Assembly: GCA_001938485.1 (NCBI GenBank)
Contig: MQRK01252249.1
Coordinates: forward strand, 24,446 to 81,789
Direction of reading: 5' to 3'
Origin: Girardia tigrina
Taxonomy: Eukaryota
Length of the DNA stretch: 57,344 nucleotides
Position 1 is the stretch's first letter. The number at the start of each line of letters is the position of its first letter. The position numbers were made by a program, and so were the translations under genes. Shown piece by piece: positions 5,212 through 56,032 of this stretch. A model generated the notes under the pieces. That model was not told the origin of the DNA, made no database searches, and was given only the letters and a program-made list of their open reading frames with translations.

Positions 5212-5907
5212 TGTAGAATGTCAGATAATGCTTAAAGAGTCTTAGAAAGGAAAATTTAAAACAAAAATCTCAGCCGTAGACAAAGAATTAAAAGAATTTA
5301 GATGGAAGGAAGATAATGATGAGAGAAATCAAATTACAAATAGGATGAATAAAATAAAACAATAAAGGCATATCGATGAGAATACACGAGTGGTAGAATA
5401 CAACCGGAGTCGCGATAGGACGGCACAAGTTCAACACTATAAAGGGCAGATCGCTACTAGTATGAATGTTGTTACAAATATAACATAATGGTGTAAATAT
5501 TTACGATACATTTAGAGGGAACCGTCAGTACAGCGAGTAATGATCTGAATAAGCATGACGGATACACGCAGAGAGAAGACAAACAAACCACACAACATGA
5601 CAGACGTAAAGAAATCAAATGACGAAGTAAAAAAAAATAATAGTGAGCCGCCGAATATTACTAAAATCATCTCCGAGCGGAGCTGAGTTAGTTGGGAGGC
5701 CCACAGTCCGTCCTGACCTAAATAGAACCCATTAGCACTCCAAACCTGGCACTACCAGTTAGATGTCAGGCGAGGGAGATTCGTCCGACCATCCCACAAA
5801 TAAACGTGTAAAATTAAATGCGAGATATATCGGGTAATGGTTAACCCTTAATAACCACTGGGATCTCATGAGCTTACAAAAATGTTAGTACTCGAAGCGG
5901 TGTGACA
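5212..5907 (+). mobile_element. LTR-like family A, copy 1 (putative solo LTR)
   Basis: TGTAGAA...TGACA ends, AATAAA at 5799, GC-rich core homologous to the copies at 10.4, 14.8, 21.4 and 55.8 kb. Left boundary uncertain; no TSD seen. Confidence 0.6.
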
Positions 5908-6114
5908 AAATAATGAAATAATACATATATTATCTAGCACAACTGTTATATACTTTCCTTTCTATTAAAAAAAATTTTAAAGCATATTGATGTAGCTTGA
6001 TATACATGGAAAAACATCACACGACACTATTTTTAATGAAGCAATAAAATGACTTTTCAAAGTAATGAAGTGTAGAGGATAAAAAGTAATTCAATATTAA
6101 TTAAGGCTTAGCTG

Positions 6115-6878
6115 TCAATTCATCCGGACCCATTTAAGATTCACCGTGTCGTACGATTTACGCAGAGAACTGTCGACGTACTTGAACAAGACGCACGTCT
6201 TCTACAGCTCGTCATTATACACCGAAACGTAATACGGTTTCCTCAAGATTCTGAGAAAATATGAATAATTTATGGTTTTATTGAATTTAGAAATAATTTA
6301 ACATTGCCGCACAATCTGTTTTGCTATTGACCATCACAGAATTGTAACATCCTTCTTCATTATCATTATTAAATATCGGTTTATTACTTGTTAATAATAT
6401 TTGCATAAAAGTGGAAAACTCTTTTGCTATACAAATGTAATTTCTGACACTCAAACAATTTACATTAATTATTTTTCCTTGATAAATTGCTAGTCTCCAT
6501 TACCTTCTATCGGTTGACCATGATTGCCAGAAACTCGTGTTGGTCAACGTCGTTCCATCATTAAATAACCCGTAATAATTCGTATAACGTATTGGACAAC
6601 CTCTTTCACAGAATAAAAAATACTGTTTGGCTCGATGACCTCTCATTTAGTAAACCATTTAACCCGATGAAATAAATGGAATAATAAAAAACAATGGAGC
6701 ATTGAAAAATGTCTTGTATCTCGTTTTTAGAAACAAATTGACCTCTGTTGCTGTAAGTACCGGAAGAGAGGCTGAGTATTGCGCAATATCTTCCATAATT
6801 CGTATAACGTATTGGACAACCTCTTTCACAGAATAAAAAATATTCTATCGCAAAAATTATCCCAAATAATAATTGCAT
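6115..6878 (-). pseudogene. Planarian scarf-type secreted C-type lectin (CTLD plus PAN/apple-like tail) pseudogene
   Basis: Signal peptide, then GCPIRYTNYGRYCAI, YFIGLNGLLNER, FNDGTTLTNTSFW, NYIC, NNDNEEGCYN...DCAA, a 52-nt GT-AG intron (6251-6302) and KTCVLFKYVDSSL. Frameshifts, a stop and a 48-bp internal duplication disrupt it. Confidence 0.7.
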
Positions 6879-7485
6879 AAAAACTGACAATAAAAGTTCA
6901 TTGATGAGGAAACTAATTTTAACAACCTCCTCCGTCCAATAGGAACAATGAGAGTTTACCATTCTGTCATTCTCTTTTTGAAGATTTATTTTATTTGTTT
7001 TTTGAGACAGAAAAAAGATACAATTTACACCAGTCGTACTTCTTAATTGAAGATTTGTTATTAGAAATGAGCTTTTACAACCAATGAACGTGATCTAAAA
7101 TAATTTACTGTATGGAAAAAAGATATTTCCAAAAGATAAGGTCCAAATATATTCTTAAGAGTTTATATTATTGTATAAATTAATATATAGTGTTCTGAAT
7201 ATTCGTAATTTGGAGGCAGATTTTGAATGAAAGTCGGAGTTCTATTATTCAGGCAGTAAATTCTCTATGTTTTAAAAGGGGAGTTATTGATGAATTGATA
7301 AGAGATACTTAAACTACATTTTTAGAAAAAGATTTTGTTAATCAGACAAGTTTTTGAAAAAAGTGATCAGAAAATCGAACAAGTAACCGTGTTGTGTGGT
7401 AGAGTAATTGTGTTGTAGATAGAAACACCAAACAATTAGGAGAACTATCAGCAGATCAAATATAACGATAGAAGAAGATTCTTAA

Positions 7486-7708
7486 CCCATTAACGCCAAA
7501 CGGGAACATTCGTGCCCAGCTAATAAAAATGGCTGTAAAAGTAAAGACATTGCATTTAACTATGTTTCGTTGATAAGGTGTGTACTCTGAAGGTTCAGAA
7601 CACATACGAAACATGTTTTGTTTCTCTGTCACCAGGCATTATGAAAAATTATGAAAATTATGGAAAATTATGAAAAATTCATATTACATAATTCTCGGCA
7701 TTAATGGG
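7486..7708. mobile_element. piggyBac-type MITE
   Basis: TTAA on both sides; TIRs cccattaacgcc and ggcattaatggg (11/12); internal ~10-bp attatgaaaa tandem repeats. Confidence 0.8.
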
Positions 7709-54470: not shown

Positions 54471-55418
54471 ACGAGAAATCGATTTATCAAATTTTAAGTC
54501 AACTCTTACGATATTATGTTAATCATATTATGTTAATTATGTTAATCCTAACGGTTGATATATTTAATTTTATACGCGGTAGCCTTTATTGGTAATTGTA
54601 TCTTGATATTTAATATGACTTGTTGATATTTAATATAATTTATCTTAATATTTGTTATTTTATTTAATTATCATGTAATTATAAATCGTATTTTAATTTT
54701 ATTGATATCCGAAAGTGTATCGCGTTTGAATTGGAGAAGAGTTATATTGCGCTTTTATACCATGATAGACCCCACCGTAGGGGAAGGTCGAGTTGTTAAT
54801 AAGTCGTTAACAAGGTGGTTCGCCGTCAGAGGTTATGTGAGTCAAAAGTGAGGGAGAGAACGATCGCTCGGCTTTGTCGGGAGTTAGAGAGTGAAATGAA
54901 TTTTAGAGTGTGAATAAATTATACAATTGTAAATATAAATTTTCAACTTTGATAATTAACTCCTTTTAGAGACTAGTTTGGTAACTTCATAAGTTGAGAA
55001 TTCAACTTTGGTTTATAGTTTATGATAGAATTTTATATTAATATGGTTTAACAATTGATAATTCCAATCCGATTTATAATCTTTCTCATTTTATGTGTAA
55101 TTTATAACGAGTTAGTAATTTCTTTTAATCGTTCTAGTAATTAATTTATTGATGGATAATGTACCAGTTAATAATACTAGTCTAATTATTGACCAAGTGA
55201 CTCAAATTGTAGTTAGTTTTCTTGGAGATGTTTTAGAGAAACGTTAGAGAGAAGTTTTAATGTTAGGGATTACGAGGGTGATACAAGGTACAGAGAAGAC
55301 TGATGTTGGTCAAGATGAGAGATAGCCTATGTTTGATTTCGTTAAAACATAATTTAGTTTTTTTTTAACAAATAATTGTCTTTTTGATATATAAGTAAAA
55401 AAATTAAAAGATAAAAAT

Positions 55419-55452
55419 TATATATATATATATATATATATATATATATATA
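55419..55452. repeat. (TA)n microsatellite
   Basis: Perfect run. Confidence 0.95.
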
Positions 55453-55791
55453 TTGGTTTTGAATTGCATTTCTTTTAATAATGGTTAAATATTACAGTAA
55501 TTCCGCAGATGTTTTTAAAATAGAGTTACCAGTTGTAGCCGAATTGAAATAAATATACATCGATTAATTTTGCTTATTAACAATTAAAATTTGCGGAAAC
55601 GTGATTTTATTCAAAAATGAATCTTAACGAAGCAGATCCATTCGTAAATAAATCCTTGAATAAATGTGTGTCAAAAATTCTTAATAAAATCCTACAGTTG
55701 AGAGGAAGGTATCTATTAAGTTCAGATAAAGTTTAAATAACTGTGACTGAATAGAGTCTATTAAATCAAATATAATTATTGATAGAGAGAA

Positions 55792-56032
55792 TCGCAGAAC
55801 CTTTTAGAGGCGACGCGGGCCATCCCCGGCGAACACGCTGGAAAGTCGTCGTCTATCGCTCTGAGGCTATCTTCGCTCTAACATAAATTTTCATGTGAAT
55901 ATAAAATGAAGGCCCCTGTAAATATATATTAACATACACCTACCCCTCCAGATACTGTTGCTACCAGCCGGGCCATCCCCTATGCTGGTCAGGAACCCGT
56001 AGGCGTTCCGAAGTGTATACAGCTTACTGAAA
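55792..56032 (+). mobile_element. LTR-like family A, copy 5, cut by a Tc1 insertion
   Basis: agaacctttt..gacgc, ctatc..aggct.tcttcg and ctaccag.cgggc..tcag(g)aacccg.aggcg are collinear with copy 3. Confidence 0.6.

What the first reader, a model, noticed from the sequence alone, without database searches (positions are those of the whole stretch)
5212..56032. Five divergent LTR-like copies share covarying RNA hairpins
Seen: hairpin 1 with a constant bulged A is CCTGGCA-CTA ccagt TAG-A-TGTCAGG (5745), CCCAGCA-CTAC atg GTAG-A-TCTGGG (10589), CACACA-CAA ctcg TTG-A-TGCGCGTG (15101) and CTCTTCA-CTG cagg CAG-A-TGCCGAG (21532-21508, minus). The inner pairs change compensatorily (CTA/TAG, CAA/TTG, CTG/CAG). 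A GAGA motif follows, and AATAAA lies ~30 nt later in copies 1 and 3. Hairpin 2 also covaries (GGGT..ACCC in three copies, GAGTT..AACTC in copy 3). Copy 5 is cut before these hairpins. Inference: a selected, TAR-like or catalytic RNA structure near the R/U5 region of a possibly undescribed retroelement lineage.
Basis: partly seen in the sequence, partly recalled or inferred. Interest (0 to 1): 0.7.

Follow-up and report, generated by a model that had tools for sequence, protein, structure and literature searches.

The report
Pseudoknot-guarded primer site of giant retrotransposons
The five repeats are leftover ends of what is most likely a known giant jumping gene, and they keep matching base-pair patterns for a folded RNA (two hairpins, a knot, a partial second copy of the primer landing site and a strand predicted to cover the real one) that likely controls when the element starts copying itself.

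Summary
The hairpins are real. The five copies are the 3' ends (R-U5) of 2-3.4 kb Gypsy LTRs; copy 2 is a whole solo LTR with a 4-bp target duplication. In 150 places the same end runs into a primer-binding site (PBS) matching host tRNA-Pro, and behind one subfamily lies Gag-Env-protease-dUTPase-RT, the published order of planarian Burro elements, so the lineage is probably not new. The structure is larger than reported: stem-loop A, long stem B (hairpin 1 is its tip), an H-type pseudoknot ('hairpin 2' is only its stem 1), a 9-nt copy of the PBS abutting the pseudoknot, and a strand predicted to fold over the true PBS. Covariation holds against a tree-based null (2 pairs de novo, 9 of 41 proposed pairs) and favours the sense RNA. 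Copy 5 keeps the hairpin-1 tip; AATAAA is not conserved; no Rfam match. Best reading: a leader that gates tRNA-Pro priming, as retroviral U5-PBS and Ty1 leaders do. Function, transcription and RNA ends are untested. Not found in my paper searches or in earlier scan notes.

The parts
8106..10730 (+). Copy 2: whole solo LTR, 2,625 bp, TGTTGCG...CGTGACA, 4-bp target duplication GATT (8102-8105, 10731-10734)
10513..10730 (+). Copy 2 structured end: stems A/B 10513-10634 (hairpin 1 from 10589), pseudoknot 10653-10680, PBS-like site 10681-10689, anti-PBS strand and LTR end
   Evidence: (69.8 bits)
5339..5907 (+). Copy 1: 5'-truncated LTR remnant
5666..5674 (+). Copy 1: ATCA-N-CCCC-type boundary where conservation starts; inferred start of R
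   Evidence: inference
5691..5717 (+). Copy 1: stem-loop A (6-7 bp, 2-nt bulge, 4 bp, 5-nt loop)
5725..5786 (+). Copy 1: stem B (basal stem with conserved A.C mismatch, lower stem with 3' bulged A, purine-rich internal loop, hairpin 1 at 5745-5770 with bulged A)
5832..5858 (+).
5859..5867 (+). Copy 1: PBS-like site (decayed in this copy)
5870..5907 (+). Copy 1: GAGY..AAAATGTT strand complementary to LTR end, spacer and PBS of a 5' LTR; terminal hairpin; LTR end GACA
14800..15264 (+). Copy 3: 5'-truncated LTR remnant (left edge approximate); stems A/B 15026-15143, AATAAA 15154, pseudoknot 15192-15218, PBS-like site 15219-15227
21353..21980 (-). Copy 4: 5'-truncated LTR remnant (far edge approximate); stems A/B 21606-21489, pseudoknot 21427-21401, PBS-like site 21400-21392
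55750..56034 (+). Copy 5: LTR fragment (left edge approximate) with stem A and most of stem B including the hairpin-1 tip (56020-56030); cut at a TA by a Tc1-type transposon starting 56035
   Evidence: (55.5 bits)

Best explanation
The copies are the last 250 bases of Gypsy long terminal repeats, most likely of Burro-type giant elements, and their compensating base changes mark a sense-strand RNA fold that likely gates the start of reverse transcription by tRNA-Pro. Shown: LTR termini, target duplications, a tRNA-Pro PBS 3-4 nt behind the end, covarying stems A and B, an interlocked second stem that makes a pseudoknot, a 9-nt PBS copy directly after it, and complementarity between the last 47 nt of the LTR and PBS positions 1-13. 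Inferred: RNA starts near ATCA-N-CCCC, so A and B head the transcript; in the 5' copy the U5 tail folds over the PBS (closed state, about -22 to -31 kcal/mol); the Gag zinc knuckles would open it as the 18-nt tRNA duplex (about -41) forms; the pseudoknot would fix the upstream border of this switch and block extension from any tRNA caught on the PBS-like site; stem B with its bulged A and purine loop would serve as the Gag handle that couples priming to packaging.
For: Termini and 4-bp duplications: 6 exact and 2 with one mismatch among the 8 of 13 displayed LTRs with a readable left end, plus window copy 2. End+PBS pattern: 150 matches, 0 for the reversed control; PBS is the exact 18-nt complement of the genome's tRNA-Pro(TGG) plus CCA. 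Domain order behind c4-type LTRs matches PMC6431247 (passages). Between families only the last ~250 nt, and weakly a block near the 5' end, stay alignable. Covariation: top 7 of 18,417 pairs are all nested standard pairs, 2 at E<0.05; 9 of 41 proposed pairs at E<0.05; 91.4% and 89.2% of cells pair against 30-52% for slid structures. G-U outweighs A-C 203:66. Pseudoknot S2 in loci picked by another motif: 148 of 156 cells pair in 26 of 28 loci, swap control max 138. U5/PBS hairpin: median z -3.2, 56 of 65 junctions below -2; closed in 22 of 29 whole-leader folds; spacer variants are matched in U5 in L273 and L276. Precedent: Ty1 pseudoknot needed for reverse transcription (PMC3681743, part 1 of 2 read); MLV NC opens U5-PBS for tRNA-Pro (PMC11181671, passages).
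Against: No function, transcript or RNA end was observed. The pseudoknot has only 1 of 10 pairs individually significant, its count of doubly changed pairs does not exceed shuffles (6 vs 6.5; 443 of 500), and the structure was chosen after seeing the data, so the restricted E-values are optimistic. The data hold two deep clades, so many changes are few events. The TGGGGG of the PBS-like site is predicted mostly paired (mean unpaired 0.15-0.48), not a free landing pad. In 7 of 29 whole-leader folds the PBS is not closed. Coding sequence was seen only behind c4-type LTRs. Stems A and B lie 130-250 nt from the PBS and could act in transcription or packaging instead.
Confidence: 0.55

Rival explanations
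1. The fold is mainly a packaging and dimerisation signal: Gag binds stem B, two genomes pair through the near-palindrome GCTC-N1-2-GAGY behind the PBS-like site, and PBS closure is a side effect.
For: Near-palindrome is part of a pattern with 2,787 exact matches, control 0; bulged-A stems and purine loops are typical protein sites (recalled); frequent module swapping implies co-packaging; Ty1 PAL motifs (PMC3681743).
Against: The GAGY half is equally explained by pairing with the PBS; the palindrome is imperfect in many copies, the GAGT variants.
Confidence: 0.2
2. Stems A and B are TAR/poly(A)-hairpin analogues in R that tune transcription or 3'-end formation of a very long RNA, and the pseudoknot protects or marks the 3' end.
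For: Homology breaks sharply 4-9 nt before the CCCC run (139 of 505 related pairs break in the 50-69 nt bins, peak 59), with reciprocal mosaics (30 pairs) as expected at the start of R (PMC5668417, passages); AATAAA follows stem B in copies 1 and 3.
Against: AATAAA is in 27% (weighted) of linkers and lies outside any hairpin; the c2 family has almost no linker; no positioned TATA among 49 upstream types; does not account for the PBS copy or the anti-PBS strand.
Confidence: 0.15
3. The region is a self-cleaving ribozyme of a new class that makes one end of the element's RNA.
For: Many invariant unpaired bases (GAAC, A.C mismatch, bulged As); ribozymes occur in other retroelements.
Against: No Rfam match in the window at E<=5 over the copies or in 8 PBS-junction loci at E<=10; the covarying topology is two simple stem-loops plus a separate small pseudoknot, not the nested double pseudoknot of HDV-like or the layout of pistol, twister or hammerhead RNAs (layouts recalled).
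Confidence: 0.05
4. The conservation acts on DNA (integrase attachment end, promoter) and the apparent covariation comes from shared ancestry of a few master copies.
For: Few deep clades; many non-pairing column pairs also score high; terminal bases are integrase sites in all LTRs.
Against: Top-ranked pairs are standard, nested and exceed the tree null; G-U excess on one strand; up to four pair types at single positions.
Confidence: 0.05

Closest known systems
Burro / GYPSM1 giant Gypsy elements of planarians (PMC6431247, passages read)
   Same: Gag with CCHC knuckle, ubiquitin-like and weak BCL2-like segments, Env-type fusion protein between Gag and protease, dUTPase-like segment before RT; thousands of copies; multi-kb LTRs
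   Different: The passages describe proteins and size, not LTR RNA structure, primer or a PBS copy; direct sequence comparison with Burro-1 to -4 was not possible
Retroviral U5-PBS segment (MLV tRNA-Pro; HIV-1 PBS segment with TLE and PAS; PMC11181671, passages read)
   Same: Structured RNA around the PBS that is remodelled for tRNA annealing; same primer type as MLV; covarying stems
   Different: No pseudoknot is mentioned for that segment (0 hits in the paper); HIV's extra elements mimic the anticodon arm or pair with the T-arm, whereas here the extra site repeats PBS positions 1-9
Ty1 5' pseudoknot (PMC3681743, part 1 of 2 read)
   Same: Pseudoknot in an LTR-retrotransposon leader; mutants fail at reverse transcription
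   Different: Ty1/Copia, tRNA-iMet, a 5'-terminal regulatory-region pseudoknot; here a compact 27-nt H-type knot about 50 nt before the LTR end, touching a PBS copy
Retrozymes and Penelope hammerheads (PMC4918200, search listing and abstract start only)
   Same: Conserved RNA motif inside terminal repeats
   Different: No hammerhead or other Rfam ribozyme here; autonomous Gypsy parent

Membership tests
Ty3/Gypsy LTR | TG...CA termini with short inverted ends | tested here: met
   TGTTGCG/TGTTACG ... CGTGACA/CGCGACA
Ty3/Gypsy LTR | Short target-site duplication | tested here: met
   4 bp: 6 exact, 2 with one mismatch of 8 readable; GATT for window copy 2
Ty3/Gypsy LTR | PBS complementary to a host tRNA 3' end just behind the 5' LTR | tested here: met
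   150 matches vs 0; tRNA-Pro(TGG) genes in the genome
Ty3/Gypsy LTR | Polypurine tract before a 3' LTR; two LTRs around one internal region | tested here: inconclusive
   No shared purine tract in left flanks of 60 loci; assembly of 255,254 contigs gave no whole element
Burro | Gag with CCHC knuckles at the start of the polyprotein | tested here: met
   Ty3_capsid E 1.4e-6 (just under cut-off), zf-CCHC E 2.4e-5
Burro | Env/fusion glycoprotein between Gag and protease | tested here: met
   Monjiviricetes_fusion E 6.8e-39, upstream of and in one frame with the protease motif; also in a second locus
Burro | Ubiquitin/SUMO-like, BCL2-like and dUTPase-like segments in the published order | tested here: inconclusive
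   Right order but weak: ubiquitin E 6.6e-4, dUTPase E 1e-3, Bcl-xL E 0.2; none for the second locus
Burro | One ORF of about 5,000 aa and total length over 25-30 kb | not testable with these tools
   Copies are broken and contigs short; 6-8 kb lie between PBS and gag
Burro | Sequence or RT-tree placement with Burro-1 to -4 / GYPSM1 | not tested
   Reference sequences not on hand
Burro | All five LTR types belong to such a coding region | tested here: inconclusive
   Same PBS behind c1-, c3/c5- and c4-type ends, a decayed one behind a c2 end; gag seen only behind c4-type
H-type pseudoknot | Two interlocked stems kept by compensatory change | tested here: met
   S2 types G-C/C-G, U-A/C-G/A-U, G-C/A-U, U-A/C-G; S1 G-C/A-U; hold-out 148 of 156; only 1 pair individually significant
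H-type pseudoknot | Feasible loops: 1-2 nt across a 6-7 bp S2, 3 or more A-rich nt across S1 (rule recalled) | tested here: met
   L1 1-2 nt, L3 3-7 nt A-rich on the sense strand
H-type pseudoknot | Forms in solution | not testable with these tools
   Needs probing
Known self-cleaving ribozymes (Rfam) | Match to a family model | tested here: not met
Known self-cleaving ribozymes (Rfam) | Self-cleavage | not testable with these tools
   Bench assay
TAR-like element | Hairpin at the very 5' end of the RNA, in R | tested here: inconclusive
   Recombination breakpoints suggest it; no RNA ends available
TAR-like element | Binds a transactivator and raises elongation | not testable with these tools
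   No such protein identified

The most novel reading that the evidence does not exclude
Burro-type LTRs carry a two-site primer switch: tRNA-Pro first docks on the PBS copy in U5 (9-13 bp, about -21 kcal/mol), where the abutting pseudoknot stops reverse transcriptase from starting; docking peels the U5 strand off the real PBS and hands the primer over. This would be a built-in decoy and roadblock for timing reverse transcription of a 30-kb RNA, not described for any retroelement in my searches.
Probability: 0.2. Interest if true: 0.75.

Novelty: new variant of a known kind. Interest (0 to 1): 0.5.

Why it matters
Leader structures are worked out for a few retroviruses and yeast Ty elements; my searches found none for animal Gypsy giants. 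Here thousands of diverged copies give a natural covariation data set that fixes a structure model for the cis-acting end of the largest known LTR elements and names their primer (tRNA-Pro). It makes testable how a very long genome times priming, and the ATCA-N-CCCC junction offers a sequence marker for U3/R swapping between families. The 119-position model finds all five window copies and 22 of 28 independent loci, so it can annotate solo LTRs that share no other sequence.

Tried and rejected
Expression: no RNA holder listed; laying two contig sets on a 5' LTR shows no starts, ends or strand, and the depth peak over the conserved end is expected from cross-mapping; not used as evidence. Ranking column pairs by parsimony-concerted changes was swamped by the unalignable linker and gave no stem pairs at the top; rejected as a method. 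The first pseudoknot check and the first whole-leader fold (2 sequences) had parsing faults and were redone. Long-range pairing of the 5' CCCC with the PBS-like G run: over 0.5 in only 6 of 29 folds, undecided. A positioned TATA box: none. Metagenome scan for the motif: 0. Penelope pseudo-LTR, SINE, Helitron and 5'-truncated LINE readings were dropped once both LTR termini, 4-bp duplications and the PBS appeared. The Gypsy pol at 52383-54190 is not the parent of copy 5: Burro-type frames give no match in the window. Alignment A4 is fitted to the model and holds one chance row (window 56556-56684), so I lean. Grohme et al. 2018 could not be read; its text, supplements and Repbase entries may already annotate Burro LTR ends and PBS. 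Paper searches for the structure listed nothing on it.
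Full report
Observation. A profile of copies 1-4 finds copy 5 at E 1.4e-5 and nothing else in the window; copies 1-4 are 50-63% identical over the last 270 nt and unalignable further left. Three corrections: copy 5 keeps the tip of hairpin 1 (56020-56030) and is cut at 56034/5 by a Tc1-type transposon; AATAAA is present in 51 of 150 linkers, 27% weighted; 5212 is not an LTR start.

What the copies are. The genome is 1.43 Gb in 255,254 contigs; each copy has 262 to 3,286 first-look candidates, and a 22-base pattern from the end has 2,787 exact matches against 0 for the reversed control. 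All copies share one sharp right end...GACA. Longer stretches show units of 1.9-3.4 kb that begin TGTTGCG or TGTTACG; of 13 displayed, 8 had a readable left end, 6 with an exact 4-bp duplication and 2 with one mismatch. Window copy 2 is such a whole solo LTR, 8106-10730, flanked by GATT; the others are truncated. In 150 places (control 0) the end is followed after at most 4 nt by TGGGGGCTC-RN-CCGG; in 57 of the 66 junctions printed the first 15 bases read TGGGGGCTCAGCCGG or more, and the full 18-mer is the exact complement of this genome's tRNA-Pro(TGG) plus CCA. Six to eight kb behind the PBS of c4-type LTRs lie broken frames for Ty3 capsid, zinc knuckle, ubiquitin-like, Env-type fusion protein, protease, dUTPase-like and RT, in this order, with a weak Bcl-xL resemblance just before Env (E 0.2). 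That is the order given for planarian Burro elements (PMC6431247, passages). A flatworm host is my inference from this. Coding sequence was not seen behind the other LTR types.

The structure. From 150 distinct copies (46.5 effective; alignment not fitted to a structure) the seven best of 18,417 column pairs are all standard nested pairs in two stem-loops; two pass E<0.05 against 200 alignments simulated on the tree (window 5754-5760 and 5746-5769). Many lower-ranked pairs are clade artefacts. Of 41 proposed pairs 9 pass a structure-restricted E<0.05: 2 in stem A, 6 in stem B, 1 in the pseudoknot; this test is optimistic because the pairs were picked after inspection. On 41 cluster representatives (44 clusters at 17% distance, 3 aberrant ones left out) stems A+B pair in 91.4% of cells, slid versions in 30-46%, with 19 of 30 pairs changed on both sides (11 of 500 shuffles reach this). 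Weighted G-U exceeds A-C 203 to 66, so the fold belongs to the sense RNA. Cells pair at 89.2% against 36-52% when slid, with 65 doubly changed cells against 29 in shuffles, but the number of doubly changed pairs (6) does not exceed shuffles. In 28 loci chosen only by the downstream motif, 26 could be parsed and 148 of 156 S2 cells pair, against at most 138 in 2,000 swaps (swaps ignore relatedness). The covariance model finds all five window copies and 22 of these 28 loci; the six missed have under 200 nt of contig upstream. Rfam has no match over the copies.

The primer end. Directly after the pseudoknot, with no spacer, stands TGGGGGCTC, identical to PBS positions 1-9 at 84-100% per position and falling to 44% and 65% at 10-11 and to under 20% beyond; with AAAATGTT it is the most conserved part (0.94). 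In 5' LTR junctions the last 47-50 nt fold over the end, spacer and PBS 1-13: GGCT with AGCC, GAGY with GCTC, AAAATGT with ACATTTT. Against shuffles of the U5 part the median z is -3.2 and 56 of 65 junctions fall below -2 (one chimeric junction left out). Odd spacers are matched in U5 (L273, L276), and a C at the first spacer base occurs in 1 of 36 copies with an A opposite but in 13 of 24 without (largely one clade). With the pseudoknot held aside the PBS is closed in 22 of 29 whole leaders that could be parsed (45 candidates dropped for gaps or missing anchors). Predicted energies: tRNA end with PBS -41.5, with the U5 site -20.8, closed hairpin -24.1 kcal/mol. Part of the PBS likeness (GGCT) follows from pairing with the PBS itself; the leading TGGG does not, and it is predicted mostly paired, with no fixed partner. 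Whether a tRNA binds there is open.

Where the RNA starts. Among 505 pairs alike downstream, 139 lose homology 50-69 nt before the stem-B anchor, peaking 4-9 nt before the CCCC run (pairs are not independent and c2-heavy). One downstream type carries up to eight upstream types, and one upstream type is shared by three downstream types (30 reciprocal pairs). Conservation begins at ATCA-N-CCCC across 49 upstream types, without a positioned TATA. First-strand transfer between co-packaged RNAs leaves junctions in R (PMC5668417, passages), so I infer that R starts here and that stems A and B head the RNA. Strong selection starting at the same point could give part of this picture.

Mechanism and comparison. 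I commit to a leader that keeps the PBS closed until chaperoned annealing of tRNA-Pro, with the pseudoknot as border and roadblock and stem B as protein handle (0.55). It works like the MLV and HIV U5-PBS segments (PMC11181671, passages) and the Ty1 pseudoknot (PMC3681743, part 1 of 2), but is a member of neither. Rivals: packaging/dimer signal (0.2), transcription or 3'-end control (0.15), ribozyme (0.05), DNA-level conservation (0.05). Identity as Gypsy LTR ends is close to certain, Burro type about 0.9, a selected sense-RNA fold about 0.9. PMC12789967, PMC13524379 and PMC11410931 were read as passages only and add no description of this structure.

Verdict. Known kind of element, known kind of regulation, undescribed architecture as far as and the scan's notes reach; Grohme et al. 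2018 was not available. New variant of a known kind; interest 0.5.

Noticed in passing
window 37638-38647 (-) and 39056-39754 (-): Intronless, frameshifted PRMT1-type methyltransferase fragments next to an eIF2D winged-helix fragment (Pfam); they look like processed gene copies side by side.
   Followed up: partly
window 52383-54190 (+) and 35922-37123 (+): Two ordinary broken Gypsy pol regions (RT-RNase H-integrase; integrase), unrelated to the Burro-type frames.
   Followed up: partly
window 56035-57000 (+): Tc1-type transposon inserted at a TA inside hairpin 1 of copy 5.
   Followed up: yes
window 23150-24400 (-): Multi-copy fragment whose translation shows motifs recalled from Penelope elements (LPFLDLLV; YIGET); no Pfam hit for the one frame scanned.
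   Followed up: no
window 41050-41560 and 42334-43344: G-skewed arrays of 21-nt units with a 116-nt higher period.
   Followed up: no
L151:380-645 of the LTR; L286, L292, L294, L158, L159: A second, weaker conserved block 150-650 nt from the LTR start (60-70% between some families, ending in TTAATTAA-rich motifs); possible promoter or enhancer.
   Followed up: no
L231-L320, 5-30 nt behind the PBS: A small hairpin followed by a C run sits just 3' of the PBS in most junctions and could pair with the G run of the PBS-like site.
   Followed up: partly
L261-L280 downstream of the PBS: Non-coding or decayed leader of 6-8 kb between PBS and gag, conserved at 75-95% among c4-type elements.
   Followed up: no
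L159:6926-7163 (-): A very divergent copy of the fold in which the PBS-like string lies at a shifted place inside the pseudoknot region; left out of the 41-row counts.
   Followed up: no
stem B, window 5728-5735 and equivalents: The 6-nt side loop reads CC-GNA-GG in most families (GAA, GTA, GCA), like the very stable GNA mini-hairpins of single-stranded DNA (recalled); c1 and c2 types depart from it.
   Followed up: no
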